In this document: piece after piece, positions 38,418 through 56,057 of the stretch
Layout of the letters: the number at the start of each line of letters is the position of its first letter
Numbering within the stretch: position 1 is the stretch's first letter
Assembly (NCBI GenBank): GCA_029856145.1
Contig: JAHQWK010000022.1
Coordinates: 61,422 to 125,421, forward strand
DNA: 64,000 nucleotides
Direction: 5' to 3'
Source of the DNA: Promethearchaeia archaeon
Lineage (GTDB): Archaea; Asgardarchaeota; Lokiarchaeia; Sigyniarchaeales; SOKP01
Notes under the pieces: generated by a model
Seen by the model: the letters and a program-made list of their open reading frames with translations, nothing else
The model's database searches: none
Told to the model about the DNA's origin: nothing
Made by a program: the position numbers and the translations under genes

Positions 38418-40325
38418 TTACCTAAAAGAGACCCAGCAAAAAAATGGTATCAATGACTCGATAATAGAAAAAAGGAGAATCCATTCTAAGAATGGACTGG
38501 GAAATATACATATCCAAATAAGTATTATCATGGGTAAAATCCCATTTATGCCAATTATTTTCTGTATTTTTGAGCTATTTCGAGAGATCATCATCCCATA
38601 GGCAAAGAGCGCAAGGATAAACCCACCAAACGCAAATATCATTGAAAGATTGTGAAATATTCCTCGTGGTCCTGATCTGTCAGAACTAAAGATCCCTATT
38701 AAGATTATTCCAGTACTCCCAATAACACCTGAAATAGTAGCGTAACGACGTATCTTATCCATAACTCTATTCTTATCTGTGCTAATCCTTCGTGAAAGAA
38801 AGCAATATAATAACATAGTTGTTAAGCCACCTATCACACAGGCACAATCAAACATAAAAGGTACGGGCGTAGTGGTAAGTGACCCAAGTTGACTAATATA
38901 ATGAGAAATTAGGGTATACCCAAAAAATTTCGCAATAATAATACTCCCAATAAGCATAAAAAGATATACTATTAATCCTGTCATCAACGAGGATTTAATT
39001 ATCTTCGGATAATTCCATACATTTAATATCTTATCCTTTACACTATAAAAGAGTGGAATCCTTTCCAATATTTTTTTACTTACGGAGCTATTACCAAGTG
39101 CCAAAGTTTTTAACAGTTTTTTACCCTCATCAATAAGATGAATATCTTTATCTAAATTTCCTTCATACCAATTAAACAGGATGTTATCCTCAAAGACTCC
39201 TTTTTGTGTATTATAATTCCAGCTTGGGATATATCCTCGTGGAGAGAGTCCAGCATTAAGAAAAATCTTTTGATGGGTAGGTTCACAGGCAGAAAGAAAT
39301 ACTTCACAGTATCGTATTCCTCTTTCTTTTCCACAGTTAATAAATTCTTCTACAAACACATATAATTCTTCAAGACTGTTCACACGGTATTTTGTCTTTT
39401 CAAAGTTTTGTACCTGTGGAGTATAGAGAAACTCAAAATACGAAGAGGTATCAGGAAATCTAAATTGAATTGTTTCATACCCAAAATCATCAATTTCACT
39501 ACTTCTTATCAGACATTTTTTTAGATAATTTATTTTCTTCTGATCTAAGATGATACCTGGTGTCTCGATGTTATAGTCTCCTAACTTATATCGATTATCT
39601 GAATACAGAAAACAACTCTCCACTTGAGGCAATATGCTTGGAACTGTACTCATTCTTAAAGTTCTTAACGCTCGTTCATCATAGCAAATTTGCATTAAGT
39701 CAGATTCTACACGCCCTAAGAATACGTCCTTATTTGGATAAAACCCAATTGGAGCAATTCCACACACCCACATAGAATACTGAGACTTTGCATGAGCTGT
39801 TCGATTCTCTACGTACCACAAAAAGATCACATCTTTATATTTATGAATCATTCCCAGCATAGAACCGATCATTGCCTTCGTAATATCAATATATCCTTGA
39901 TATTTCTTTTTAAGCATAAACCCACGAATGTAACCCCTCTTATTGTCAAAATCTAAAACAAATGTAATGCAACCTGCGATATTATATGAAGGATCTTGAT
40001 AGATTATCCATTGAATTGATGGCTCTTGTATCATCTTTCGAACTTCATCAACATCTTCCATTTCCTTGTATGGATAGGTTCCGTTGTACAACTCCCTATA
40101 AATCCCCACAATTTCTTGTGCATCCTCTGGTTTTGCGAGACGTAAAATAGGTCCTACTTTATCTTTTTGTTTTCTGTCGCATAGTTTAAAATCAAGGTAC
40201 ATTCCTTTATGAATATCAGGATCTACTACCTCTTCAAACGGTTTAATGAATTGAGTTGTAGAATTTGAAAATAACTCATTTAACGATATTATTGAACTTG
40301 TAATTACTTCTTCTGAAATAGTCAT
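38418..40325 (-). CDS. GNAT-fold protein fused to a C-terminal DUF998-like multi-TM domain
   Basis: ILRLAKPEDAQEIVGIYRELYNGTYPY, KKYQG, ENRTAHAKSQ; then GYTLISHYISQLGS...GIF...FHNL...LEW with about 5 TM. Confidence 0.7.
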   Translation of the reverse strand: MTISEEVITSSIISLNELFSNSTTQFIKPFEEVVDPDIHKGMYLDFKLCDRKQKDKVGPILRLAKPEDAQEIVGIYRELYNGTYPYKEMEDVDEVRKMIQEPSIQWIIYQDPSYNIAGCITFVLDFDNKRGYIRGFMLKKKYQGYIDITKAMIGSMLGMIHKYKDVIFLWYVENRTAHAKSQYSMWVCGIAPIGFYPNKDVFLGRVESDLMQICYDERALRTLRMSTVPSILPQVESCFLYSDNRYKLGDYNIETPGIILDQKKINYLKKCLIRSSEIDDFGYETIQFRFPDTSSYFEFLYTPQVQNFEKTKYRVNSLEELYVFVEEFINCGKERGIRYCEVFLSACEPTHQKIFLNAGLSPRGYIPSWNYNTQKGVFEDNILFNWYEGNLDKDIHLIDEGKKLLKTLALGNSSVSKKILERIPLFYSVKDKILNVWNYPKIIKSSLMTGLIVYLFMLIGSIIIAKFFGYTLISHYISQLGSLTTTPVPFMFDCACVIGGLTTMLLYCFLSRRISTDKNRVMDKIRRYATISGVIGSTGIILIGIFSSDRSGPRGIFHNLSMIFAFGGFILALFAYGMMISRNSSKIQKIIGINGILPMIILIWICIFPSPFLEWILLFSIIESLIPFFCWVSFR

Positions 40326-40450: not shown

Positions 40451-40822
40451 TTACTCAGTACCTTCCAAGTCACTATTTAATGTCTCATAAATTTTATTAA
40501 TTCGTGAACCGATGGTTTCAAGAAGCTGATTTTTTTCTTCTAATTCGTTTTCTAATTGAGGTGAATTGGGGCTCCTTTGAGTAAACTCTGCTAGAGATTT
40601 ACTTGTACTTTCCCGTTTTAGATGGAACGGAATAAATTCTTTCAACGCCTTTAATATATGTGCGCGTAGTTTGATGATATTTTTGCCCAAATCGTTTATT
40701 GAAATCTTCCCGCTTCTTGCTTTCATAAGGGCTTTTTTGAGATCGTCTAGATTATCTTTATCAAACACGATCTTTTCTAAAATTTCTTCAATATCTATTT
40801 TATTTTGCATTTTTGTTCTCAC
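40451..40822 (-). CDS. Small alpha-helical hypothetical protein, last gene of five-gene operon
   Basis: 123-aa ORF overlapping the upstream stop by 4 nt; C-terminal coiled-coil pattern. Confidence 0.75.
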   Translation of the reverse strand: MRTKMQNKIDIEEILEKIVFDKDNLDDLKKALMKARSGKISINDLGKNIIKLRAHILKALKEFIPFHLKRESTSKSLAEFTQRSPNSPQLENELEEKNQLLETIGSRINKIYETLNSDLEGTE

Positions 40823-43800
40823 TCCTTATTAATAAAATATTGAATCTTACCGAAAAAAGTAGAAATAGATTGATACATTTCTTTTGCGAAAGGTTCTAAA
40901 TTAGGGTCTTCTAATTTGATAACCTGATATTGATCAATAAAGTCAATAAGTTTTTGTTTTGAGAACGGAAATCCTTCGGTTTCTCCTAATACGCCCAAAA
41001 AGAAATTGAAATCGTTTATTACTACAGATTCGACATTATAAAAATGTCTGTATACCCCCATCAGATAATTTTTAATTAACCCGTGCTGAATTTTTATCGC
41101 ATTTGAATAATCACCATTATCAATAAATCTATAAATTTTGAAAATATGAAAGTAAAGATCGCCGATTTCACGTGATAAGGCTTCTATTAAGTTTTCTTTT
41201 TGGATAACATATCGTCGAGTGTGTTTTGGAAAAATAGTAGCTAAATCCTCAGAATCCATACCTTCCCGTTCTAATACTTCCACTTGAAAATCTCTATTTG
41301 CTCCTCCTTTCACTTTATAATAATCTTCTAACGCTTCTTGGTATCGTGATCCTACCGAATACGATGTTCTTAAAGCTTCCCCGCCACCCGCTCTTCGTGG
41401 ATGATTTTCTACTAAATACTCGTGTTTGATAAGAGCCTCTAATACATTTTCTATAATTCTTTTTAGGTGTTGTTTATTTTGTGTCTTTTCCGAAATTGTG
41501 GGATATAAAGATTGTTTTAAGTATTTCTTTAGTTTATCCCTGTATAAATTTCCAATCTGATCAATTGTTAATATTTGATCCATAAATTTGATGATATCTT
41601 TCACATAAATATAATAATGCCCTAAATCTATTTCAAACAAGGACTCTCGTGCTTGCTCTAATATTTTCCGTTCAGAAACATGCAAATTAAATCCTTGAGT
41701 GTCCATAAATTTCACGATCTCTTCATAAGGGAGAGTTGACTTCTCTTGGATGTCTTTCCAATCTATTATAGCAGGAAAGGGTTGGTCAATATCATCCCTC
41801 CGAGTAATTATTGTATCGTGTTTCAAATTTTTCAAATAATTAATCTGGTGGGAGTGTTTTCTTTTTGAGGAGTAAATACCTATTCCTTCAAGTTCCTGTA
41901 AGTTTACTATATTCCGTAGCATAGCAATATCTCGGGTATCTGTTGCTCTCAAGGTCATATAATTGTTAAAATATAAAAGAGCATTTGCATGAAGGTAATG
42001 AATTTGATGTGCAGAAAAGATAAGTCCAAATTTTTTCTCTACAAATGGTTTTAGAAAAATGTCCACTTTATCGTAGTTTCTTCTCAAATCCAAGAAATAT
42101 GAATCAAAGATATTATCTATATAGGGTATATATAGAATTTTTTTGTAATATTCTTCGTGATGTTGTATATAATGTCCGATTTTAGAAAGGATTACAAATG
42201 TTACAAACATTTTCTTTTTGAGGTCTCGAAATACTGAAAGATCAATTATAACGGTTTTGTTATTTTTAACGAAATCACTTGCCCCAATACTGTCTTTCTG
42301 AATTGTCTGGAAATAAGTCATTTCATTGGGGGTAAAATCTGCAAATATCGTTAGGAGGAGATCATTTACTGGGGTTTTTTCCCATTCAGTTTGATTTTGG
42401 AGTGCCATTTGAATAGAACCTAAATCCATATCAGGATTTTTTTGTATCGTTTGTCGAAACATCTCCACTATACGCTCATCTCTTTTTAATGCCAGTCCAA
42501 ACGCATCATAGATATTTTCGAGATAATCTGCATTATGAGGGTCGTAAGGAATGTCTGATTTAATAGGATCAACAATAAACGAACTTCCGTACTTGAAATA
42601 TAAGATATCTTTTTTAAACTCTGTACCATCAAAATAGGGGAGAAGTCTAGACCACTCACCGGCAAAGTCAAATACAATAGAGGGAATCTTTGCTTTAATC
42701 AGCTCAGATATGATTTTCATAGAAATTAAATCTCGATGCTCAGAAGTGCCATTCATAATAAGTAAATTATGCAACTGTTCACGTGTAAAACCAAAAGCTA
42801 CTTCTGTTTCCAATACCTCGGTATTGAATGCATGACCAATAGTAATAAAGTTTTCCAGATACAAAGGCGTATTAAACTCGGCAGCAATTTCTATATGTAC
42901 GCCTTTTTTTAGAACATCTACAATTTCCGTAAGAGGATACATATATGCTCCTTGGAACATTACATAATTTAAATGAGTCCCATTAAGTCGATATAAGTTA
43001 TGTTTTAAGACAGAAAAGAGGTATCCAGAAATTAGCGTGCTTGTCCTCATCACCTCAATTTCATATGCCTGAAAATTAATATCAAATGCCCCTTGAAGCT
43101 CATCAATTTGGGATATAAGGTCTTCTTCCATCTCGCTGAAAACAGCATCATTAAGGGTATCTACAAACTTGTAGGAGTTCACCGACATAGTGAGCATAGT
43201 AAACCACATTCCATAACGCATTCCTAACCATCTTTCTTCTTGAATCTCTTTTTGAAACCGTGTCTTATAGAACCATTGCGGGGTCAAATATTTTTTCCCT
43301 CCATTATGGTAAAAATCATAAAAAGATAGTGGCTGATTTTTCAAAGTATAGCTAAAATTTACTTTATGATTATTCAGGCTTTCAATAAACTTTCCCAGCA
43401 AGCAGAAGGGTCTGTTATACACATGCTTCAGATTTACTAGTTTCATCCCAATAAGAAGTCGATTCTCTACATGGAAAAAGACACTATAAGGAAATTCTCT
43501 TACCCTGTAGAATTGGACATCAGCAAATGGTTTTGTAACGATAATATCATCTGTCTTTATGAGTTTTGATTTTGTAAACTGAAATAATAAGGATCTCCAC
43601 CATAATAAGGTTAATCCGACAATGAATACTAGATTTATACAAATAATATAGAAAATAAGCAGATTCATAAAAAAAAATAGAAATAAACTAAAATAGAATA
43701 CCAATCCAGCACATATACCGAATTTCCAAAAGATATGTGAATTATTTGAATTTAAAGCTTTTTTCTTGTTAATAGGTGTCTCGTAGGTGGCCACCTTTTC

Positions 43801-44622
43801 TTTAAGATAAAAAGTCCGTACGGCATTCATTAAGGCATTTCCAGAAAGTAAAACAGCTTGAAAGTGATGAAAATTACTTACAATATTACTTTTTAGAGTA
43901 TCGGAATATTTTCTGATAAAATACTGCATTTTATCAAGTTTATGGTTTGTAAGAATCCCTTTTTCTTCTTTAAACACCGAAAAATAAATAGTTGTGCCTC
44001 GTGAGTGGAGAGATTTAAGAACATTGTTTCGGGACGTGTCCTTGTTAAAGAGATGGATAACTGGTTTTTGCACGATTTGGTATGAGTATGACATACGTAT
44101 ATTTTTGGAAGCTAAAGCTTTTACAAACTGTACAATTGCAGGATGAATATTTTCAGCAATCACTTGTATTTGATAGATTCGCAAGGCAACATGAACTAAA
44201 TCTTTTTTATTGGACATAAATAATGTTGAGCTATCTTCGTTTTTATGCCAAAACACCATATCTTCGAACGGTGTAAAGGCAACTTTATTTCTAGAAAAAA
44301 ATCTAAAGAAATATCTTAATAAATAAATTTCATCATGAAATACTAAAATAAAGCCAATACAACTTATAACCCCAACGCCTATAGAACCGATAAGGTGTTT
44401 GGTGAATAGGTACATTGTAACAATAATACAGATGGTAATTATTAGAAGAACTATCACCTTAACAATGGAAAAATTATTTGAAATATCTTTATATGAGGGA
44501 TTAGCCTCCCAAATATTCAGATCCTCTCTTAGGTCTTCTTTCTCTTCTGTTTTGATAATCTTCCTTTTTATTTTTTTATTATACCCTTCATATTTTTCTA
44601 AATGATCATCAATCTCTACCAT
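40819..44622 (-). CDS. Membrane-anchored HerA/FtsK/VirB4-superfamily protein with degenerate Walker motifs
   Basis: Two [2TM + soluble domain] N-terminal units; FITIG...LHNLLIMNGTSEHRD...ELIKAKIPSIVFDFAGEWSRL, TVIIDLS and FGLIFSAHQ...NNYMTLRATDTRD follow the HerA/DUF87 pattern but lack GxxGxGK[ST] and DE. Confidence 0.75.
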   Translation of the reverse strand: MVEIDDHLEKYEGYNKKIKRKIIKTEEKEDLREDLNIWEANPSYKDISNNFSIVKVIVLLIITICIIVTMYLFTKHLIGSIGVGVISCIGFILVFHDEIYLLRYFFRFFSRNKVAFTPFEDMVFWHKNEDSSTLFMSNKKDLVHVALRIYQIQVIAENIHPAIVQFVKALASKNIRMSYSYQIVQKPVIHLFNKDTSRNNVLKSLHSRGTTIYFSVFKEEKGILTNHKLDKMQYFIRKYSDTLKSNIVSNFHHFQAVLLSGNALMNAVRTFYLKEKVATYETPINKKKALNSNNSHIFWKFGICAGLVFYFSLFLFFFMNLLIFYIICINLVFIVGLTLLWWRSLLFQFTKSKLIKTDDIIVTKPFADVQFYRVREFPYSVFFHVENRLLIGMKLVNLKHVYNRPFCLLGKFIESLNNHKVNFSYTLKNQPLSFYDFYHNGGKKYLTPQWFYKTRFQKEIQEERWLGMRYGMWFTMLTMSVNSYKFVDTLNDAVFSEMEEDLISQIDELQGAFDINFQAYEIEVMRTSTLISGYLFSVLKHNLYRLNGTHLNYVMFQGAYMYPLTEIVDVLKKGVHIEIAAEFNTPLYLENFITIGHAFNTEVLETEVAFGFTREQLHNLLIMNGTSEHRDLISMKIISELIKAKIPSIVFDFAGEWSRLLPYFDGTEFKKDILYFKYGSSFIVDPIKSDIPYDPHNADYLENIYDAFGLALKRDERIVEMFRQTIQKNPDMDLGSIQMALQNQTEWEKTPVNDLLLTIFADFTPNEMTYFQTIQKDSIGASDFVKNNKTVIIDLSVFRDLKKKMFVTFVILSKIGHYIQHHEEYYKKILYIPYIDNIFDSYFLDLRRNYDKVDIFLKPFVEKKFGLIFSAHQIHYLHANALLYFNNYMTLRATDTRDIAMLRNIVNLQELEGIGIYSSKRKHSHQINYLKNLKHDTIITRRDDIDQPFPAIIDWKDIQEKSTLPYEEIVKFMDTQGFNLHVSERKILEQARESLFEIDLGHYYIYVKDIIKFMDQILTIDQIGNLYRDKLKKYLKQSLYPTISEKTQNKQHLKRIIENVLEALIKHEYLVENHPRRAGGGEALRTSYSVGSRYQEALEDYYKVKGGANRDFQVEVLEREGMDSEDLATIFPKHTRRYVIQKENLIEALSREIGDLYFHIFKIYRFIDNGDYSNAIKIQHGLIKNYLMGVYRHFYNVESVVINDFNFFLGVLGETEGFPFSKQKLIDFIDQYQVIKLEDPNLEPFAKEMYQSISTFFGKIQYFINKE

Positions 44623-44626
44623 GATA

Positions 44627-45487
44627 TTAAGACCTCACTTTTCGAAATTGCTTGATATAGAAATATGTTAAAAGTACGGCACATCCAAAAAAGATGAGGA
44701 TCCATGAACTTAAATCATTTGAAAACATTGGAATAAGACTTAGTTCAATTAAGATTATTATCCCAAGTGATGAAAGTAATACAATTAATCCCAAAATGAA
44801 ATATCCAAAAATGGATTCAATCGAGCTCTGATAGTTAAGGTTGTCCTTAAGTGCCCCATGAATCGTTATTTTCCCTTTTTTATCATGGGTTATTGAATTT
44901 TTTATAGAACGTAAATGGATGGCAGTTTCTAATTTAGGTCCGTCTAACTCATACTGGAGATTTTTTCTCAGATTTGTTTCTTTTTCTACAATTTTCTGTA
45001 AGATTAATGGCTTAAGAGCGTCTGAATTTTTTTCTTTCCGTCTACTACTAGGTGATAAAAATGAAAAGGCGCCTAACTTAGAGGAGAGTAGAATGCTTTC
45101 ATGGTCCAAGCTTTTATGGAGGTTTGGTACCTCTAATTTTCTTAATTCATAGTAAATAGATAACATCTGTTTAATATGCTCTTGGGGAATATTACCCTTA
45201 CTCTTCAAAAAGAGAATTTCACATTCCCGTACCGTCTCAATATAGGAACCTCGATAAATAGGAACTTTTAGATTCTCCTCAAAAATCTCATTAATAAGTT
45301 CCATATATTCGAATATTTTTTCTCCTGAAGTTCTATTACGTGGTCGTACACCAAGATTGATCCCAATTTCATTTACTCTATTGCTCGTAAGAATAAAACT
45401 TACAACTGCTAGTTTCTTATAATTTTGAGTTTCTTTACATATATGAATTAGATTTTTTAACTTGGCATCAAGTAATTGATAACTCAT
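44627..45487 (-). CDS. Hypothetical protein with two C-terminal TM helices
   Basis: 286 aa, soluble N-terminal region, two hydrophobic segments at the C-terminus; ATGA overlap with the upstream gene. Confidence 0.8.
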   Translation of the reverse strand: MSYQLLDAKLKNLIHICKETQNYKKLAVVSFILTSNRVNEIGINLGVRPRNRTSGEKIFEYMELINEIFEENLKVPIYRGSYIETVRECEILFLKSKGNIPQEHIKQMLSIYYELRKLEVPNLHKSLDHESILLSSKLGAFSFLSPSSRRKEKNSDALKPLILQKIVEKETNLRKNLQYELDGPKLETAIHLRSIKNSITHDKKGKITIHGALKDNLNYQSSIESIFGYFILGLIVLLSSLGIIILIELSLIPMFSNDLSSWILIFFGCAVLLTYFYIKQFRKVRS

Positions 45488-46218: not shown

Positions 46219-48270
46219 TCAATCCTCCAAAAATGAGCTGTATTTATCTACATATTTATCTTTCACATTAGAAATCTCTTCTTTTTGAGTTTTTGAATAT
46301 TCTAAGGGTTCTGATTCCATTACGATATCCTGCTCAAAAATGTTAGATTCTTCAATTCTTCTATTTTGTACTCGTTCAGAAAGAAATTTTTCGGCATTCT
46401 CTTTTTCTAGTTTATCGATAAAATTGAACCCAGAATCTTTTCCTACACTCTCAAATATAAACTGATCCATCAATTTCGAGCTCAATTCCTCGTTTATGAG
46501 GATAAGAGTAGTCTCATCTAAGTTAAGTTTTTTCTGATAATAAGGGGTCGAAAACTCTTGGTGAAGTGCTGATTTTTGCTTAAAGAGTTTCAAATAAAGA
46601 TAGCTAATCATAACAATATAAAATGAAACAACCCCATATCCCAAATTGATTAATAATGGTAAAACTGAATATTCTTGGGAAAGTAATACAAATAATACTA
46701 CAATTCCATAAATCATAAATGGTGAGGAATAACTTCGCAGATCTTTCATAAACTTGTTAGTAGCTTCGCAATTTAAAACAACCGCATTTTTTTCTTCACT
46801 ATACGTTTCTATAAGAAAATATTTTTGATCAAGATACTGTAAAAGATCTGCAAATTTCGAGTGCTGTACTATATGAATATTTGAATTTTTTTGATACGCA
46901 AACGGAATAATTTTTTCTGTAAATCCTACGATGTTCTGACAGACCAATACTGGCTCAATCAAAATTTTATGTTGAAGTGGACCTGAACGGAAAAAAAGAT
47001 TTTTTCGTGTAAATGATTTTTCTAAAGAAATATTTGTTCCTAAATATCTTGAGAGGTATCTTAGCAAGGTACCTTCACTTACAATATCTGAATAGATCGA
47101 CAGCTTAACTTGTGAAAGTGCTTTTAAGTATGATTGAGGTAACCGATCCACCCGAAAACTTGTATCTTCAATTTTTTTAGTGGAATTATATTGAACACTC
47201 TCACTCGATATAATAAGAGAGCCTTTAAGAGTACATATTTTAATAGGTAAAATGTATATTAGATCTAAGAATTCTTTTACCCTTACATGTTTTATGGCTA
47301 AGAGATCGATTCCAGTAAATATTGCTCGTAATTTAGGGTGTTTTTCAATAATACCGAATCCAGATAATTTTAAGTCCTTGGTAATTCGCATTAGAGATTC
47401 TTTGATTTGGGCATGTGGTAAAACCTCTTGGGATGCTGTATTCCTTTCTTGTAAGGTAAGATTAGATTGTCGCAATAATTCTGGCGAAACTACTAAAGTA
47501 TTATTTTTTTCAGATCCTTCAACTAATAAAGGCTCATTTAATTTAATTTTTTTATCAGTATCATCATAATTTATTATTGATGATCCATCTTCATCAATTT
47601 CTTCATAATCTAACTCTTCAAAATTATTAATAGAACTTTCGTAGTTCTCTGAATCAATTTTTAAAGGCTCAGCTACAGGTGAAACTTCCTCTGGGGGATA
47701 CCATTTCTCAGTTTCAGGTTTTTCAAATTTTTTTTCAAACCATTTTTTAGGTTCTTCTCTTAAGTTTGATTCTCCACTATTTTCTAAATTTGCTCCAGAC
47801 TTATTTGCTTCTGGAAAATCGTTTAACTTTTTCATTTTCATATGCTCCTTGGCACTTGAAATATATTTTTGTGCTGTTGCGAGCCCTATACCATTTACCC
47901 TTGCTATCCTTTCTGGAGGTGATTGTGCTAATTCTGCTACTGTATGGACTCCTATTCCATAAAGCTTTTCAGCAACCTTTGGTCCGATACCTTTAACAAT
48001 GGTTATTGTTTCTTTTTTTATACTCGATAGTAATGAAGAATCTTGAGCTGAATTCATAGTATCTGCTTGCCCTTGAGAAATATTTGTGTTGAGGGAATCA
48101 AATTTATCAATCCATTCGCCACTATTTTGTAATTTGGCTTGCTTAAGACCATTTTTAGAAATTTTGAGGGCTTCATCTACATCATTTTCTTGATATGCCT
48201 CTTGGGCCAAATTATAATATGACTTCAAATCCGGTTTTTTTTGGAGAAGACTATTTTCCATATCCGTCAT
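46219..48270 (-). CDS. Membrane-anchored helix-hairpin-helix DNA-binding protein with a probable inactive PD-(D/E)xK-like domain
   Basis: VKGIGPKVAEKL...VNGIGLATAQKY HhH pair; acidic linker; LKLSGFGII...GIDLLAIK...ILPIK; two TM near the C-terminus; start set at ATG 48270 from TATA spacing (48261 or 48279 also possible). Confidence 0.8.
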   Translation of the reverse strand: MTDMENSLLQKKPDLKSYYNLAQEAYQENDVDEALKISKNGLKQAKLQNSGEWIDKFDSLNTNISQGQADTMNSAQDSSLLSSIKKETITIVKGIGPKVAEKLYGIGVHTVAELAQSPPERIARVNGIGLATAQKYISSAKEHMKMKKLNDFPEANKSGANLENSGESNLREEPKKWFEKKFEKPETEKWYPPEEVSPVAEPLKIDSENYESSINNFEELDYEEIDEDGSSIINYDDTDKKIKLNEPLLVEGSEKNNTLVVSPELLRQSNLTLQERNTASQEVLPHAQIKESLMRITKDLKLSGFGIIEKHPKLRAIFTGIDLLAIKHVRVKEFLDLIYILPIKICTLKGSLIISSESVQYNSTKKIEDTSFRVDRLPQSYLKALSQVKLSIYSDIVSEGTLLRYLSRYLGTNISLEKSFTRKNLFFRSGPLQHKILIEPVLVCQNIVGFTEKIIPFAYQKNSNIHIVQHSKFADLLQYLDQKYFLIETYSEEKNAVVLNCEATNKFMKDLRSYSSPFMIYGIVVLFVLLSQEYSVLPLLINLGYGVVSFYIVMISYLYLKLFKQKSALHQEFSTPYYQKKLNLDETTLILINEELSSKLMDQFIFESVGKDSGFNFIDKLEKENAEKFLSERVQNRRIEESNIFEQDIVMESEPLEYSKTQKEEISNVKDKYVDKYSSFLED

Positions 48271-48292
48271 GCGTATCATAAAAAGATAAAAT

Positions 48293-48315
48293 AAGTATAT
48301 ATAAAGAAAAAATGC
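48293..48315 (-). promoter_or_regulatory. T-tract/TATA promoter of the five-gene membrane operon
   Basis: GCATTTTTTC-TTTATATA-TACTT; TATA ends 28 nt before ATG 48270; near-identical to 37141-37164. Confidence 0.65.
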
Positions 48316-48429
48316 AAGCCCCCCCAAATTTATTATTTAGAAGGAATAACTATAAATGGATAAATAGCATATCTTAACTTAAATTGGCAGAAATTAGCAA
48401 ATTATAAGAAAATATTAATTACAAATTAT

Positions 48430-49168: not shown

Positions 49169-51649
49169 ATGGATAAAGAAATTTTTAAATTTATTCCTGA
49201 TAAACGCATCTTACGGGTGTTATTTGAAGGGAAGATTTTTTCCTTACGGCAGATTCAAAAAGAAGCGATTAAAAAGGGACTATTCTTTCGTAAATCATTT
49301 TTAGTATGTGCTCCCTCAGGTAGTGGGAAAACTCTAATTGGTGAAGTATGTGCGATAAACAATGTGTTCCAAAAGTTTGGAAAGTCTATATATTTAGTAC
49401 CATATAAAGCCCTTGCCACAGAGAAGTATTCTCATTTTAAGAAAAGCTATAGTAGGTTTGGCGTGAAAGTAGAGCTTTCTATAGGGGATTATGATGTGGA
49501 TGACTCTAAGTTAGAAAAGGCAGATCTTATTGTCACTACCTATGAGAAATGCGACAGTATCCTAAGAAATTTCCATGATAAAGAGTGGATTTTCAATATT
49601 TCAACAATTATTATAGATGAGATTCATATCATCGCAGAATCTGATAGAGGTCCACGATTGGAATCGTTAGTTGTTCGACTTAATGAATTCCTTCATTATC
49701 CACAAATTATTGGACTTTCAGCCACCATCGCAAATCCAAAATTCTTTAATTCATGGCTTTCTTCACTTGGAAACCATACTACGCTTATCAAATCTGATGA
49801 TCGTCCTGTACCCCTTCATTATAAGATTGATATTACACAAAATAAGGACTCAACAATAAAAAGGTTAGTGAAAGCCACTTTAGAAAAAAATGGACAAGTG
49901 CTTATATTCGTAAATAGGAGGAAAGCAGCCCAAAAGTCGGCAGATAGTATAAAACGTATTGTTGAGAAATTTTTAGAAGAAAATGAACTGAACGTGTGTA
50001 AATCACTTGAAAAAAAGTTAAGTAATATTAAGGGAGGTCATCGTGACCTACGAAAAGTGATAAAACATGGTGTTGCGTTTCATCATGCGGGGCTACTTCC
50101 AAAAGAGAGAAAAGCAATTGAAGATAACTTTAGGAAGCGAATAATTAAAGTAATATGTTGTACAACCACGCTTTCAGCGGGTATAAACACACCCGCACGA
50201 TTAGTCATTCTAAAAGACTTCAAGAAGTATATAACATCTGGACATAATATCAAGAATTTCTCTGGATACCATGAAAACGGAGACGGTTTTTCTTATTTTA
50301 AATCGTTTTCTGGAAATGAAGTTTTTCAAATCCTTGGAAGAGCAGGACGCCCCGGACTTGATACCGTAGGGTATGGAATCATACTTGTAAAAGATATTGA
50401 AGAGAAAATGTGGGTTGAGGATCATTTTTTTCAAAACTATAATCTCGCTAAGACATTAATACCAAAATATAATGATTTGACTTCAGGATTAAATAAAATT
50501 AATACCCTTAAAGAACAGGTACTTCTTCGAATCTTCGAAGAGAATAGAATTACATTAGAAAAATTAAAAGAATTTTTTGAAAAAACCTATTTCTGGTATG
50601 GAATTAAAAATAAAATGAAAGAGCAACAAATTCCCATTGAACAACTTTTAATGATAAAAGAAATTACGCCTATTAACATATTAAAACTCCATTCTAATCC
50701 TGAACAAGTTAGTTCACTAAAAAAAAATATACTTCAAATTAAGCTTTCAAAATTTACCGAAGATAACATCTCTGGGTATGTGAAGACTGCCTATGGGGTG
50801 TATTACGGCCAATTCGATATTGAAACGGGAATCCAATGTACTTGTGGCTTTAAGAATGGCATTTCTGATAATTTTGCGAATGACGAGTTCTCATTTGAAT
50901 TTTGCAATCATATAAGTGCTTTTCTGGTCTATCTCATTCAGATTCCAGATATGAATTTTCAGAAATATGTAGATTCTATTATCCCTAAATCAGTAAAAAA
51001 TCAGTATATTCTTAATTACCTGTTTGAGAAAGGGTTGATAAAAAAGACTGAAGATGGGACTATTGAATGCTCTCAGTTTGGAAAGTTAATTATTCGCTTG
51101 TACTTATATCCCGTATCTGGAGTAATGATAAGATATAAGCTTGAAAATGTCGAAATTGATAGCTTCCAAGATCTTATCAAGGAATCTTATGACATTTTAA
51201 AGGCAGAATTTCGCGTAAAGGATTATAAGATGTTCCAGCCGATCCTTGAGTGGGCAGATGAGGAACCAATTGATCAGATATTAGAGAGATACAATATTAT
51301 GGCGGGAGATCTGTTTTCTGTAAGAGATAGTCTTGAACGTATCATTACATTTATAGGAATTATAGCCAGTAATTTAAGCACGCACGGTGTAGACTTGCAA
51401 GATAAGCTGACGAGAGTAGCTGAGATGAGCGAAACATTGAGGATTCGACTTCATTATGGGATCCGTGAAGAGTTATTTGATTTAGTTTTGAGGTTAAACG
51501 ATGTGGCTCGTGTGAGGGCAAGAATTTTATATAGAGCTGGGTATCATATTGCTTCACAAGTGAAAAGAGAGAGCCCTTATATTTTAAATCAAAAGACAGG
51601 TTTAGGAATTAATCTCTGTAAAAAGATCATTAAAGAAGAAAATAAGTGA
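49169..51649 (+). CDS. Hel308/Ski2-like SF2 DNA helicase with inserted SWIM-type zinc finger
   Basis: APSGSGKT, VPYKALA, DEIH, LSAT, FHHAGL, TTTLSAGINTPA, QILGRAGRPG; insert QCTCG...FCNHI; C-terminal VARVRARILYRAG HhH-like. Confidence 0.9.
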   Translation: MDKEIFKFIPDKRILRVLFEGKIFSLRQIQKEAIKKGLFFRKSFLVCAPSGSGKTLIGEVCAINNVFQKFGKSIYLVPYKALATEKYSHFKKSYSRFGVKVELSIGDYDVDDSKLEKADLIVTTYEKCDSILRNFHDKEWIFNISTIIIDEIHIIAESDRGPRLESLVVRLNEFLHYPQIIGLSATIANPKFFNSWLSSLGNHTTLIKSDDRPVPLHYKIDITQNKDSTIKRLVKATLEKNGQVLIFVNRRKAAQKSADSIKRIVEKFLEENELNVCKSLEKKLSNIKGGHRDLRKVIKHGVAFHHAGLLPKERKAIEDNFRKRIIKVICCTTTLSAGINTPARLVILKDFKKYITSGHNIKNFSGYHENGDGFSYFKSFSGNEVFQILGRAGRPGLDTVGYGIILVKDIEEKMWVEDHFFQNYNLAKTLIPKYNDLTSGLNKINTLKEQVLLRIFEENRITLEKLKEFFEKTYFWYGIKNKMKEQQIPIEQLLMIKEITPINILKLHSNPEQVSSLKKNILQIKLSKFTEDNISGYVKTAYGVYYGQFDIETGIQCTCGFKNGISDNFANDEFSFEFCNHISAFLVYLIQIPDMNFQKYVDSIIPKSVKNQYILNYLFEKGLIKKTEDGTIECSQFGKLIIRLYLYPVSGVMIRYKLENVEIDSFQDLIKESYDILKAEFRVKDYKMFQPILEWADEEPIDQILERYNIMAGDLFSVRDSLERIITFIGIIASNLSTHGVDLQDKLTRVAEMSETLRIRLHYGIREELFDLVLRLNDVARVRARILYRAGYHIASQVKRESPYILNQKTGLGINLCKKIIKEENK

Positions 51650-53357: not shown

Positions 53358-53882
53358 TCATACCCTTATTTTATACGAATAATCACCATTTAAACGTATT
53401 AAGAATCCTTGTCTCTGTAGTCTTCTTGTTAACAATTTCACTTCTGATTGTGGAATCCCGTAGTTTTCTGCCATGATTTCAATAATATAGTAGGGAAAAG
53501 AGTTATGAGTTTCAGATAAACTATAAAGCATTTGTTTAAATTTCTCATAATAATCATCATCTTCAGAATCTAAATTTATGGCATTTTTCTGATACTTTAC
53601 TTTTCCAGCAATTTTAAAATCCCCCAAAGTTCTAAACTCTGGTTCTGAACCCAATTCTTTTATCGCAAGGTCATTCTGTTTTTTTTTTACTAATTCTACG
53701 GCATTGGATATACCCTTTATAATTTCACCACGATCTATTATTTTGCTGACTTTATGAGTATAACCACACCTAACGCATTTTTTAGACTTTTGAGTGATTT
53801 TCGTATAAATATATTGATGACATTTACTACAAGAAAATATTAAATAAGGAGTCTCATCTTTTTTCCATGTGATATCTTCCAT
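53358..53882 (-). CDS. DUF1922-like zinc-ribbon protein with C-terminal winged helix
   Basis: YLIFSCSKCHQYIY...KKCVRCG; C-terminal AENYGIPQSEVKLLTRRLQRQGFL; 3 nt downstream of the Hef-like gene. Confidence 0.75.
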   Translation of the reverse strand: MEDITWKKDETPYLIFSCSKCHQYIYTKITQKSKKCVRCGYTHKVSKIIDRGEIIKGISNAVELVKKKQNDLAIKELGSEPEFRTLGDFKIAGKVKYQKNAINLDSEDDDYYEKFKQMLYSLSETHNSFPYYIIEIMAENYGIPQSEVKLLTRRLQRQGFLIRLNGDYSYKIRV

Positions 53883-53885
53883 ACT

Positions 53886-56057
53886 TCATTTCTCCTCGTG
53901 TGGATTTTCTAAGATATTTTTTACGATAAAATACAATTCTTCTTCATTATCAATGGCTATTGCTTGAATGGTATGTTGCTTTGCGAATTCCTGCAATTTT
54001 CTTTTTAGTAATCGTTTTTCACCTTCTACAGTTTCAGTAAAATCTGTAAAATCAAAACTAATGATAAGAAGAGATGAAATTTGGCTAAAGTCATTAACTT
54101 CAGCAAGTAGGGATTCCGAATTGAAATCTTTAGGGTTATAGATTTGAATAAGGACTTTATTATGAATGACAATATGAAGATCAGAATCTTCGATAGCATA
54201 CGAAATTTTATCTGTTTGGAGCCTGTTTCTTATCCCGAACTTCATCGGTAAGAATTTACTCAGTTTAATAGGATAGGTTCTTTCTGTAGGTTTATCTTGG
54301 GGCGTTTCTTCTATAAAAGTATGGAGTTTCGATTGGGTTTGTCGTGTACCTACTTTTTTTCGAGGGATTTCTTCTATTTTAAGGGCGATTTTATGAACGG
54401 TTTCTCGAGTATCTTGACTTGGGGTAATAGGCGTTAGGAAAGGGACTTTATTTTTGTAGGAATCGTTTAATTGCTGTGGATTTTTGAGATTTACATTCAT
54501 CCTCTTTAATTTACTTAAAGCGATTTTAAGATATATCTCATCACGAGTATTTTTGCTGTATAATATTACCACTTTGCCTTCCCGATGCCGTGCGGTTCTT
54601 CCTTTTCTCTGAATCAATCGAATCTCAGAAGCTACCACATCGTAAAAAACTACTAAGTCACATTCACTAATATCTAACCCTTCTTCACCGACATTAGTAG
54701 AACACAACACGTTATATTGGCCTTTTTTAAACTGATCTAAGATCTCAATCTGTTGTTTTTGGGAAAGTCCTTTATCATCTTGGGACTTGGTTGCTTGTCC
54801 TACAAATCGCACCGGTCTTATTACGGATACAGTTTTCAGTTTTCTTACAATATTTTTGACTGAATTCCTAAGTTTAATAAATACCAAAATTCGAGATTCA
54901 GAAGTATTTTGTAATTCTTCTAATATGATTTTTAAGAGGACATGGTACTTAGGGTGGGTAAGATTTTCTGGGGAAAACTCTACGTTTCTTTTCAGCTCCA
55001 TGTAGATTCTATGTAAGCGCCCATCTGAGGCGAGAATCTTTGTAGCTTTTGAACTAGTTTTCTTTCTGGCATCTCTATGAAGCTTATTAAAATAATCCAG
55101 TAAAACATCTAATCCTTGCTGTTCAACTAATTCAAGCATATGAAATAAAATTAAGCCTTGAGCATTAATAGATAAGGCGCTATATACCCCCGTTTTATCA
55201 CCATCACTTTTTAGAAGCCGTACTAACTCTGCATTTAATCTTAGTAAATCTTTTCTGATAACCTTGTTATGTAATTGATCCCCCTGTGCTTCTAAAAAGT
55301 TCAACTGAGATAAATAATGAAGTCGTTCTTCTAATACCATAGTAATCACCTGATATATATCCTCCATGAGACTTGTAAGGTCCACTCCAATTTTGTAGAT
55401 ATCCATTGGTTTGAGATAGGTTTTTACATCACTATCTGTACGCGTTCTAATATGGATATTATCCATTGGAATATGTAAGTTTGTACAGAGCGCAGCAATT
55501 TTTTTCTTGGAAGCCCCAGGTGAAGCTGTTAATCCTAATATGATTCCATCAGGATTGTGATCAGTAAACTCATCTGCGATCATTGTATAAGGGTAGTCAC
55601 CTGTTGCATGATGTGCCTCATCAAATATTACTAATACAGTGTCTGTTAAGGTATATTTTCGATTTACTAAATCGTTTCGAAGCGTTTGGGGGGTATAGAA
55701 TAATATTTGATTTTGGCCAAAAATATCGATTCGATGTTCAGGAAGAATTTTCCCTGTTAAAATTGCAAATTTCTCTTCGTGAATCCCTAAAAATTTTAAG
55801 AATGTATGATAATGCTGGTTAATTAAAGGACGAGTGGGCGCAAGTACGATAATCTTGCTATTAGCCGGAAATCTTTCTAAGACTTTACTTGCAACTAATA
55901 CAGCAATTATGGTTTTTCCAAGACCCGTAGGGAGAACCACTAATGAATTTTTATCAATACATTCTTCAGCGATATGTAATTGGTATTTTCTTGCTTCTAG
56001 ACCTTTCGAATTTAACTCTGAAGTGGTGTCACTGGTAACTTCTTTTATCTCAGCCAT
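53886..56057 (-). CDS. Hef/FANCM/Mph1-like DEAH helicase with degenerate C-terminal ERCC4-like domain
   Basis: EARKYQ, LPTGLGKT, APTRPL, DEAHHA, LTASPG, RFVGQA, TNVGEEGLDI, IQRKGRTAR; tail SDLHIVIHNKVLIQIYNPKDF lacks the GDY...ERK catalytic motif. Confidence 0.92.
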   Translation of the reverse strand: MAEIKEVTSDTTSELNSKGLEARKYQLHIAEECIDKNSLVVLPTGLGKTIIAVLVASKVLERFPANSKIIVLAPTRPLINQHYHTFLKFLGIHEEKFAILTGKILPEHRIDIFGQNQILFYTPQTLRNDLVNRKYTLTDTVLVIFDEAHHATGDYPYTMIADEFTDHNPDGIILGLTASPGASKKKIAALCTNLHIPMDNIHIRTRTDSDVKTYLKPMDIYKIGVDLTSLMEDIYQVITMVLEERLHYLSQLNFLEAQGDQLHNKVIRKDLLRLNAELVRLLKSDGDKTGVYSALSINAQGLILFHMLELVEQQGLDVLLDYFNKLHRDARKKTSSKATKILASDGRLHRIYMELKRNVEFSPENLTHPKYHVLLKIILEELQNTSESRILVFIKLRNSVKNIVRKLKTVSVIRPVRFVGQATKSQDDKGLSQKQQIEILDQFKKGQYNVLCSTNVGEEGLDISECDLVVFYDVVASEIRLIQRKGRTARHREGKVVILYSKNTRDEIYLKIALSKLKRMNVNLKNPQQLNDSYKNKVPFLTPITPSQDTRETVHKIALKIEEIPRKKVGTRQTQSKLHTFIEETPQDKPTERTYPIKLSKFLPMKFGIRNRLQTDKISYAIEDSDLHIVIHNKVLIQIYNPKDFNSESLLAEVNDFSQISSLLIISFDFTDFTETVEGEKRLLKRKLQEFAKQHTIQAIAIDNEEELYFIVKNILENPHEEK

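What the first reader, a model, noticed from the sequence alone, without database searches (positions are those of the whole stretch)
40819..44622. 1267-aa HerA/VirB4-like pseudo-ATPase with duplicated membrane-proximal module
Seen: Walker A position reads NGTSEHRD and Walker B position reads ILYIPYIDN, while the flanking HerA-type motifs (IPSIVFDFAGEW, VIIDLS, GLIFSAHQ, TLRATDTRD) are retained. The N-terminal ~540 aa appears to be two copies of [2 TM + alpha/beta domain] (FVKALASKNIRMSYSYQIVQKP vs FIESLNNHKVNFSYTLKNQP). There is a further C-terminal region with a winged-helix-like segment (LEALIKHEYLVE...TSYSVG). Inference: a catalytically dead ring or scaffold, powered by a partner ATPase or acting as a passive DNA conduit or anchor.
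Basis: partly seen in the sequence, partly recalled or inferred. Interest (0 to 1): 0.7.

Follow-up and report, generated by a model that had tools for sequence, protein, structure and literature searches.

The report
Motor-dead VirB4-like Asgard membrane protein
This 1267-residue membrane protein of a Loki-type Asgard archaeon is built like VirB4, the ATPase of bacterial DNA-transfer machines, but it and every relative checked lack the ATP-binding motifs, so it is probably a structural platform in an undescribed membrane complex.

Summary
The ORF at 40819-44622 (-) is intact. Its Walker A and B positions read NGTSEHRD and ILYIPYID. The N-terminal half is a true tandem duplication of [TM hairpin + alpha/beta domain] (hhalign 97.8%, E 1e-12).

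The fold assignment can be sharpened. It is not HerA proper but a full VirB4 architecture:
- The N-half matches only TrwK/VirB4 NTD (Z 25.2, 307 residues).
- The C-half is closest to VirB4 CTD (Z 25.3), then DndH-C and HerA.

P-loop loss is family-wide. All 33 aligned orthologues (38-72% identity) lack it. So do 26 distant relatives from a profile search of 1.84 billion proteins that I checked, including split and single-module forms in other Asgard lineages. dN/dS is 0.14-0.20.

The gene sits in a tightly packed, conserved operon: HhH membrane protein, 4-TM protein, tail-anchored protein, this gene, then a small coiled-coil protein. A Hel308-like helicase lies divergently next to the operon. 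No active VirB4 paralogue was found in the genome.

Best reading: a non-catalytic, T4SS-derived platform of a membrane complex. Handling of DNA is inferred, not shown.

The scan already found this family on other DNA (e1-2385082, e1-5562353). I found no paper describing it.

The parts
40819..44622 (-). Gene for the 1267-aa VirB4-like pseudo-ATPase (P0001)
   Evidence: orthologues
44341..44475 (-). TM hairpin 1 (aa 50-94). It lies N-terminal to the part that aligns with VirB4. It is possibly the counterpart of VirB3 (inference).
   Evidence: AF2 helices 50-74 and 77-94; hydropathy
43753..44286 (-). alpha/beta module 1 (aa 113-290), the first half of the VirB4-NTD-like region
43555..43737 (-). 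TM hairpin 2 (aa 296-356), inserted between the two NTD halves
42952..43545 (-). alpha/beta module 2 (aa 360-557), the second half of the VirB4-NTD-like region
41740..42870 (-). RecA-like VirB4/HerA-type domain (aa 585-961) without catalytic motifs
   Evidence: VIA Z 25.3 to 4ag6_A over model residues 46-422; Foldseek; atlas DUF87 clusters
42730..42768 (-). Degenerate Walker A position (NLLIMNGTSEHRD). N624 is near-invariant; G625 and R630 are invariant in the Loki-family clade.
42115..42141 (-). Degenerate Walker B position (KILYIPYID). K828 and P833 are invariant. There is no D-E pair.
41344..41541 (-). Predicted winged-helix segment (aa 1028-1093)
   Evidence: DSSP of model; weak MAGE hits. 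The split form P0274 in another Asgard family also aligns through this segment (hhalign).
40831..41190 (-). C-terminal helical bundle (aa 1145-1264), fold not identified
44627..45487 (-). P0002, 286 aa: a cytoplasmic domain plus a C-terminal TM hairpin. Its stop lies 4 nt before the start of P0001.
   Evidence: conserved position in L007-L009
45484..46218 (-). P0003, about 243 aa, a 4-TM protein. Its stop overlaps the start of P0002 (ATGA).
46219..48279 (-). P0004, about 686 aa counted from the ATG at residue 17 of the listed ORF. It has a cytoplasmic HhH (HHH_5, E 7e-12), an acidic linker, a middle domain and a TM hairpin.
40451..40810 (-). P0005, about 119 aa, a small helical or coiled-coil protein. 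Its likely ATG lies 8 nt after the stop of P0001.
   Evidence: 117-119 aa counterparts in L007 and L008
49169..51649 (+). Divergently transcribed Hel308-like SF2 helicase (DEAD, Helicase_C, Helicase_dom4_arc). This is conserved context, not shown to be a partner.
   Evidence: same arrangement in L007-L009. Helicases are also near distant relatives.

Best explanation
P0001 is a membrane-embedded, non-catalytic descendant of the type IV secretion ATPase VirB4.

Shown here:
- It has the complete VirB4 plan, NTD plus RecA-like CTD.
- The NTD is a tandem duplication, with each half preceded by a TM hairpin.
- The CTD keeps its fold but has no Walker A lysine/serine and no Walker B acidic pair.
- This loss is shared by every relative examined, and the gene is under purifying selection.
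- The gene is translationally packed with three other membrane proteins and a small helical protein. This operon is conserved across genera of its GTDB family.

Inferred:
- Like VirB4 in the T4SS inner-membrane complex, it oligomerises into a ring or trimer-of-dimers platform on the cytoplasmic face of the membrane. It organises the partner TM proteins rather than supplying energy.
- The complex probably holds or passes DNA at the membrane. The operon's first protein carries a cytoplasmic RadA-type HhH domain. P0001 carries a winged helix after the motor-like domain, as FtsK and TraB do. The locus is repeatedly next to Hel308-like or Hef-like helicases, or RadA.
- Any mechanical work would come from other proteins, such as the neighbouring SF2 helicase.
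For: Fold:
- N-half model pLDDT 89.7. Foldseek hits with E < 1e-3 are TrwK/VirB4-containing R388 entries (E 4e-9), and the next hit has E 0.055.
- VIA gives Z 25.2, rmsd 3.5, 307 aligned, model 116-560 to TrwK 14-390.
- C-half model pLDDT 82. VirB4 CTD 4ag6_A gives Z 25.3, DndH-C 24.9, HerA 23.7 and TrwB 21.6.

Dead site:
- Walker positions in the alignments.
- 26 distant relatives have no GxxxxGK[ST].
- The split form P0274 reads VAGGSHKER.

Selection:
- dN/dS 0.198 at dS 0.22, and 0.137 at dS 0.89.
- 52 of 68 genomes of the same GTDB family carry a strong match.

Operon:
- Junctions of -4 to +8 nt with SD-like GGAG motifs.
- The same gene order in L007, L008 and L009.
- The P0002 family is comparably conserved (44-73% identity) and occupies the same position in L007-L009.

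DNA link:
- HHH_5 E 7e-12 in P0004, with no N-terminal TM in its orthologues, so it is cytoplasmic.
- Hel308-like and Hef-like helicases flank the locus.
- Helicases or RadA lie near distant relatives.

Precedent for a conserved dead VirB4: RvhB4-II of Rickettsiales (PMC4676284).
Against: - No oligomer, partner contact, DNA binding or lack of ATP binding was demonstrated. All structure evidence comes from predicted models.
- No neighbour could be shown to be a VirB6, VirB3, VirB8 or VirB2 homologue. There is only a faint pilin-like NCBIfam hit for P0003 (E 0.015), and atlas searches were uninformative.
- One distant relative (L012) has no helicase or recombinase within 10 kb, so the DNA-repair neighbourhood is not universal.
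- HhH and winged-helix domains can also mediate protein contacts.
- A conserved Arg at the Walker lysine position in many clades leaves open some phosphate or nucleotide contact.
Confidence: 0.55

Rival explanations
1. It is the same dead VirB4-like platform, but the complex has nothing to do with DNA. It would scaffold protein export, surface-structure assembly or membrane organisation. Many T4SS derivatives do this. EccE/EccC do it in type VII secretion.
For: - The N-half also resembles ESX chains built as 2 TM + cytosolic alpha/beta domain (6umm_A Z 12.7, 6sgz_D 9.9).
- EccC ATPase domains appear among C-half matches (Z about 13.6-13.9).
- L012 lacks DNA-repair neighbours.
- A DUF998 membrane protein follows the operon in the window and in two of the three related loci examined.
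Against: - The operon's own HhH protein.
- The winged helix kept even in the short split form.
- The recurrent helicase or RadA neighbourhood.
- No secreted substrate or large extracellular domain is encoded in the operon.
Confidence: 0.2
2. It is a hetero-oligomer with an active ATPase encoded elsewhere, as RvhB4-II is thought to pair with RvhB4-I. The dead subunits would alternate with, or cap, a live HerA/VirB4-type ring.
For: - The genome has five DUF87 proteins elsewhere. The ORFs at these loci carry canonical or near-canonical GK[ST] motifs.
- Near-invariant D895, R897 and D898 in the TDxRD motif could serve as trans-acting residues (inference).
- An earlier scan note describes another Asgard module that pairs a dead membrane ATPase with a live one (e1-5505548, not tested here).
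Against: - None of the active paralogues is linked to this operon in the window or in L007-L009.
- No second VirB4-NTD or CTD paralogue exists in this genome, apart from a 41-codon broken fragment.
Confidence: 0.1
3. It is not dead. A non-canonical pocket still binds nucleotide or another phosphate ligand, and the protein acts as a slow switch.
For: - R630 sits at the Walker lysine position. It is invariant in 33 of 33 Loki-family members and recurs as GG[ST]xxER in several distant clades.
- D836 is near-invariant close to the Walker B strand.
Against: - There is no glycine-rich loop. In the model only about three residues join strand 619-623 to helix 627-643.
- The Lokiarchaeum ossiferum-type subfamily lacks the Arg altogether.
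- No acidic pair follows the Walker B strand.
Confidence: 0.12
4. It is strain-specific decay of a once-active HerA/VirB4 gene, that is, a pseudogene in the making.
For: None beyond the missing motifs.
Against: - Intact ORFs of about 1260 codons occur in dozens of genomes down to 38% identity.
- dN/dS is 0.14-0.20.
- The degenerate positions themselves are conserved.
Confidence: 0.01

Closest known systems
VirB4 / TrwK (R388) and VirB4 of Thermoanaerobacter pseudethanolicus (PDB 8rtb, 7o42, 4ag6)
   Same: Two-domain plan. The NTD matches at Z 25.2 and the CTD at Z 25.3. It is associated with the membrane. An N-terminal TM hairpin sits where VirB3 sits or is fused in bacteria (my knowledge, not tested).
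   Different: - No Walker A or B motifs.
- A second TM hairpin is inserted in the NTD.
- A 300-residue C-terminal extension with a winged helix and a helical bundle.
- No hit to the VirB4 Pfam model PF03135 in the genome's six frames.
- Chromosomal and vertically inherited in Asgard archaea.
- No recognisable VirB2, VirB6 or VirB8 neighbours.
RvhB4-II of Rickettsiales
   Same: A conserved VirB4 paralogue that 'lacks conserved ATPase active sites' (PMC4676284).
   Different: RvhB4-II coexists with an active RvhB4-I in a bona fide T4SS. Here no active VirB4 paralogue was found in the genome.
CedB/TedB of the archaeal Ced/Ted DNA-import systems
   Same: Chromosomally 'domesticated' archaeal VirB4-like protein. 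It is encoded with small and polytopic TM proteins and linked to DNA repair (PMC9905601).
   Different: - CedB/TedB are described as AAA+ ATPases that appear to power DNA translocation (PMC9905601).
- No CedA (VirB6-like) or pilin homologue was demonstrated here.
- Different phylum.
- No direct comparison with CedB was possible.
HerA (DUF87; PDB 4d2i)
   Same: RecA-like core fold (Z 23.7). hhhDxxGE-type and hhhDLS-type motifs are present.
   Different: - No HAS-barrel: the N-half is VirB4-NTD-like.
- DUF87 scores below the Pfam cut-off.
- No Walker motifs.
- No NurA partner in the operon.
FtsK/SpoIIIE/TraB-type translocases
   Same: TM anchor, then a FtsK/HerA-superfamily domain, then a C-terminal winged helix. 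This architecture-level resemblance is from my knowledge.
   Different: Those are active motors. The winged helix here was not fold-matched to the FtsK gamma domain.

Membership tests
VirB4/TrbE/CagE (T4SS ATPase) | VirB4-type N-terminal domain fold | tested here: met
   VIA Z 25.2, rmsd 3.5, 307 aligned, to TrwK 14-390. Foldseek hits below E 1e-3 are TrwK/VirB4-containing R388 entries. Based on a predicted model.
VirB4/TrbE/CagE (T4SS ATPase) | RecA-like C-terminal domain of VirB4/TrwB/HerA type | tested here: met
   4ag6_A Z 25.3, rmsd 3.8, 328 aligned
VirB4/TrbE/CagE (T4SS ATPase) | Walker A GxxGxGK[ST] and Walker B hhhhDE | tested here: not met
   NGTSEHRD and ILYIPYID. Absent in 33 orthologues and in 26 distant relatives.
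VirB4/TrbE/CagE (T4SS ATPase) | Match to curated family HMMs (PF03135 and NCBIfam VirB4/TrbE models) | tested here: not met
   No Pfam or NCBIfam VirB4 hit at E <= 0.1. PF03135 was not found in the genome's six frames.
VirB4/TrbE/CagE (T4SS ATPase) | Encoded with VirB2, VirB3, VirB6 or VirB8 homologues | tested here: inconclusive
   Three TM-protein neighbours are conserved. No family assignment was possible. Their folds were not predicted because structure jobs were exhausted.
HerA (DUF87) helicase | DUF87 HMM above gathering score | tested here: not met
   19.8 bits versus a cut-off of 23.2, in 1 of 33 members
HerA (DUF87) helicase | N-terminal HAS-barrel | tested here: not met
   The N-half folds as a VirB4 NTD. 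The best HerA alignment starts after the barrel (4d2i_A from residue 110).
Ced/Ted DNA-import system | Active VirB4-like ATPase plus VirB6-like CedA/TedA plus VirB2-like pilin | tested here: inconclusive
   The ATPase motifs are absent. There is only a faint pilin-like hit for P0003 (E 0.015). No CedA-like fold test was possible.
RvhB4-II-type degenerate VirB4 | Coexists with an active VirB4 paralogue in the same genome | tested here: not met
   The A2 profile finds only this gene plus a 41-codon broken fragment in G000. No PF03135 hit. The genome is 97% complete.
FtsK/SpoIIIE/TraB | C-terminal DNA-recognising winged helix (gamma domain) | not tested
   A winged-helix-like element is seen in the model. 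It was not folded or searched on its own.

The most novel reading that the evidence does not exclude
Lokiarchaeia, and in split form other Asgard lineages, carry a chromosomal, T4SS-derived DNA-transfer or DNA-docking apparatus. It would be analogous to Ced/Ted. Its VirB4 subunit has become a pure scaffold. DNA would be moved by the co-located Hel308-like SF2 helicase through a channel made by the operon's TM proteins. This would be a previously unknown route of DNA exchange or repair in the closest archaeal relatives of eukaryotes.
Probability: 0.15. Interest if true: 0.85.

Novelty: new variant of a known kind. Interest (0 to 1): 0.6.

Why it matters
VirB4 is generally regarded as the most conserved T4SS component and its ATPase as essential (my knowledge). 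Here is a whole, deeply diverged family that keeps both VirB4 domains under selection while lacking the active site, with no live paralogue found in this genome. That would show the VirB4 scaffold has a function separable from ATP hydrolysis.

The family also preserves each half of the VirB4 NTD as a unit with its own TM hairpin. Forms range from separate genes, to one module fused, to both fused. This bears on how the VirB3-VirB4 module evolved.

The operon is a conserved, uncharacterised membrane complex of Asgard archaea, with DNA-binding parts and DNA-repair neighbours. A homologue exists in the cultured Lokiarchaeum ossiferum (NEF87_004794), so it is experimentally tractable.

Tried and rejected
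- PDB sequence search with the protein and with the family profile found nothing usable.
- BLASTP of the two N-terminal halves gave E 1.5, so the duplication is visible only at profile level.
- PHROGs gave no hits for P0001, P0002, P0003 or P0005.
- ESM-atlas look-alikes were uninformative. P0003 returned only generic 4-TM bundles. The P0004 middle domain has a poor Atlas model (pLDDT 0.39), so its matches mean nothing and the 'Hjc-like' idea of another note could not be tested.
- Complex prediction of the P0001 N-half with P0002 gave no verdict (score 0.00). This is neither support nor evidence against binding.
- The bacterial promoter/terminator scan found no excess over shuffles and does not apply to archaea.
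- No tRNA genes lie in 25-64 kb, and I saw no integrase among the neighbours scanned. GC is even at about 0.31-0.33, so there is no sign of a mobile element.
- Seven literature searches found no description of this family.
- dN/dS against the window's own gene is saturated (dS about 1.8-2.4), so closer orthologue pairs were used instead.
The A2 profile was used instead.


Full report
**The observation**

The ORF at 40819-44622 on the minus strand is intact and encodes 1267 residues. The window is AT-rich (GC about 0.31) and composition is even across the locus.

At the position where HerA/VirB4 ATPases carry GxxGxGK[ST], the protein reads NGTSEHRD (aa 624-631). Where they carry hhhhDE, it reads ILYIPYID (aa 829-836).

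Sequence-level evidence for a HerA relationship is thin:
- Pfam DUF87 scores 19.8 bits, under its 23.2 cut-off, and in only 1 of 33 family members.
- NCBIfam gives no hit, and sequence searches of the PDB give none of any use.

**Fold**

I folded the protein in two overlapping pieces, using alignments of about 100 orthologues each.

C-half (aa 540-1267; pLDDT 82):
- It is a HerA/FtsK-superfamily RecA-like domain over aa 585-961.
- Foldseek gives E 2e-9 to Sulfolobus HerA.
- VIA-align gives VirB4 CTD 4ag6_A Z 25.3 (rmsd 3.8, 328 aligned), DndH-C 24.9, HerA 23.7 and TrwB 21.6.
- ESM-atlas neighbours are DUF87/TraG/TrwB clusters.
- In the model the Walker A position follows strand 619-623. Only about three residues lead into helix 627-643, so there is no glycine-rich loop. 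The Walker B position is at and just after strand 829-832.

N-half (aa 1-560; pLDDT 89.7, pTM 0.87):
- Foldseek hits below E 1e-3 are the TrwK/VirB4-containing entries of the R388 type IV secretion system (E 4e-9). The next hit has E 0.055.
- VIA-align gives Z 25.2 (rmsd 3.5, 307 aligned), with model residues 116-560 on TrwK 14-390.

The whole protein therefore has the VirB4 plan, not the HerA plan, and there is no HAS-barrel.

**The duplicated module**

The model shows helix pair 50-94, alpha/beta domain 113-290, helix pair 296-356 and alpha/beta domain 360-557. BLASTP sees no similarity between the halves. Profile-profile comparison does, with probability 97.8%, E 9.7e-13, over 221 columns. 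Without the TM helices it gives 97.1%, E 6e-11.

Together the two copies correspond to the VirB4 NTD.

In other Asgard lineages the unit exists on its own:
- In locus L013 (a complete genome of another GTDB family), a 282-aa protein with two TM helices and one module precedes a 520-aa dead ATPase-plus-winged-helix protein. hhalign gives 96.5% for the module against the N-half profile and 97.4% for the ATPase protein.
- In L011 a 253-aa stand-alone module (94.7%) precedes an 818-aa form. The N-terminus of that form is a weaker match to the module (74%).

The Loki-type 1260-aa protein is thus the fully fused form.

**Is the dead site a family trait?**

Yes. In 33 orthologues (38-72% identity) the Walker A position is hhI-x-N-G-x4-R-[ED], with N624 near-invariant and G625 and R630 invariant. 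The Walker B position is K-x-hhh-P-x-h-D with no acidic pair.

A profile search of 1.84 billion representative proteins found 249 relatives. None of the 26 distant ones I checked has GxxxxGK[ST]. Several clades read GG[ST]xxER. The Lokiarchaeum ossiferum-type clade has lost even the Arg.

Selection and distribution:
- dN/dS is 0.198 for a pair at dS 0.22, and 0.137 at dS 0.89.
- In a sample of 301 genomes of the phylum, 52 of 68 genomes of the same GTDB family have strong matches.
- Three of 7 genomes in the sister family have weak full-length matches.
- Scattered other families have the short form.
- Source labels of hits are all Promethearchaeota or other Asgard MAGs.

**Context**

The gene is fourth in a packed operon, with junctions from -4 to +8 nt and GGAG-like motifs:
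1. P0004 has an HhH domain (HHH_5, E 7e-12), a linker, a middle domain and a TM hairpin. Its real start is the ATG at 48279. Orthologues have no N-terminal TM, so the HhH is cytoplasmic.
2. P0003 is a 4-TM protein.
3. P0002 has a cytoplasmic domain and a C-terminal TM hairpin.
4. P0001 is the protein studied here.
5. P0005 is a small helical protein.

The same order occurs in three other genomes whose P0001 orthologues are 38-66% identical. A Hel308-like helicase is transcribed divergently, and a Hef-like helicase with a DUF1922 protein lies beyond it. The same pair appears in L007 and L009.

Distant relatives also sit near SF2 helicases (L010 in L. ossiferum, and L011) or RadA (L013). L012 does not.

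The genome has five DUF87 proteins on other contigs. The ORFs at those loci carry canonical or near-canonical GK[ST] motifs. It has no second copy of this family beyond a broken 41-codon fragment, and no PF03135 match.

**Mechanism**

Shown: a VirB4-architecture membrane protein with a conserved, selected but motif-less ATPase domain, in a conserved operon of membrane proteins, one of which carries a DNA-binding-type domain.

Inferred: it forms the cytoplasmic platform of a membrane complex, as VirB4 does in the T4SS inner-membrane complex, without supplying energy. The complex deals with DNA, and work is done by other proteins. Oligomeric state, partner contacts, DNA binding and absence of nucleotide binding were not tested. 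One complex-prediction job gave no verdict and is not used as evidence.

**Comparison and novelty**

The nearest precedent for a conserved dead VirB4 is RvhB4-II of Rickettsiales, which accompanies an active paralogue (PMC4676284). The nearest archaeal analogue is CedB/TedB of the chromosomal Ced/Ted DNA-import systems, which are described as ATPases that appear to power DNA translocation (PMC9905601).

Seven literature searches found no description of this family. Earlier agents of this scan reached the same core reading on other genomes (e1-2385082, e1-5562353). My fold, motif and synteny results were obtained independently and agree with theirs.

I rate it a new variant of a known kind: structurally a VirB4 homologue, but failing the catalytic and HMM criteria for membership.

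Noticed in passing
window 38418-40325 (-): A 635-aa protein sits directly downstream of the operon. It has an N-terminal soluble domain (faint GNAT hit, E 0.017) and a C-terminal DUF998 membrane domain (E 2e-8). The same gene follows the operon in L007 and L008 but not in L009, so it may be a fifth or sixth member.
   Followed up: partly
window 49169-51649 (+) and 53358-56057 (-): A Hel308-like helicase (DEAD, Helicase_C, Helicase_dom4_arc) and a Hef-like helicase with a DUF1922 protein flank the operon. The arrangement recurs in L007 and L009.
   Followed up: partly
model of P0001 aa 53-557 versus PDB 6umm_A, 6sgz_D, 7b9f_E: After TrwK, the next-best structural matches of the N-half are ESX type VII secretion chains of about 240-285 residues (Z 12.7, 9.9, 7.9; rmsd about 7 for the top two). 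From memory these are EccE, which is 2 TM plus a cytosolic alpha/beta domain. This hints that the [TM hairpin + alpha/beta] unit is shared between T4SS and T7SS membrane platforms.
   Followed up: no
G000:C7:89967-90107; also G195:C4:90144-92344 and G171:C50: Broken fragments of this family, with in-frame TAA, TAG or TGA stops, occur elsewhere in this genome and in relatives. Some relatives (G008, G171) have two or three full copies. The family therefore duplicates and decays occasionally.
   Followed up: no
L013 4223-5290 (+): In another Asgard family, a RadA gene (Pfam Rad51 E 2.6e-72, with HHH_5) lies 4 kb upstream of the split form of this system, on the same strand.
   Followed up: no
L010 (Lokiarchaeum ossiferum CP104013.1, 5621864-5645658): The cultured L. 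ossiferum has a divergent 1264-aa homologue (NEF87_004794). Three SF2 helicase genes lie within 10 kb upstream of it. The small neighbours are on the opposite strand, so the operon is rearranged there.
   Followed up: no
window 46219-48327 (-): The listed TTG start of the HhH protein adds a hydrophobic 16-residue extension. The extension is absent from orthologues, whose upstream frames contain stops. The ATG at 48279 is the likely start.
   Followed up: yes
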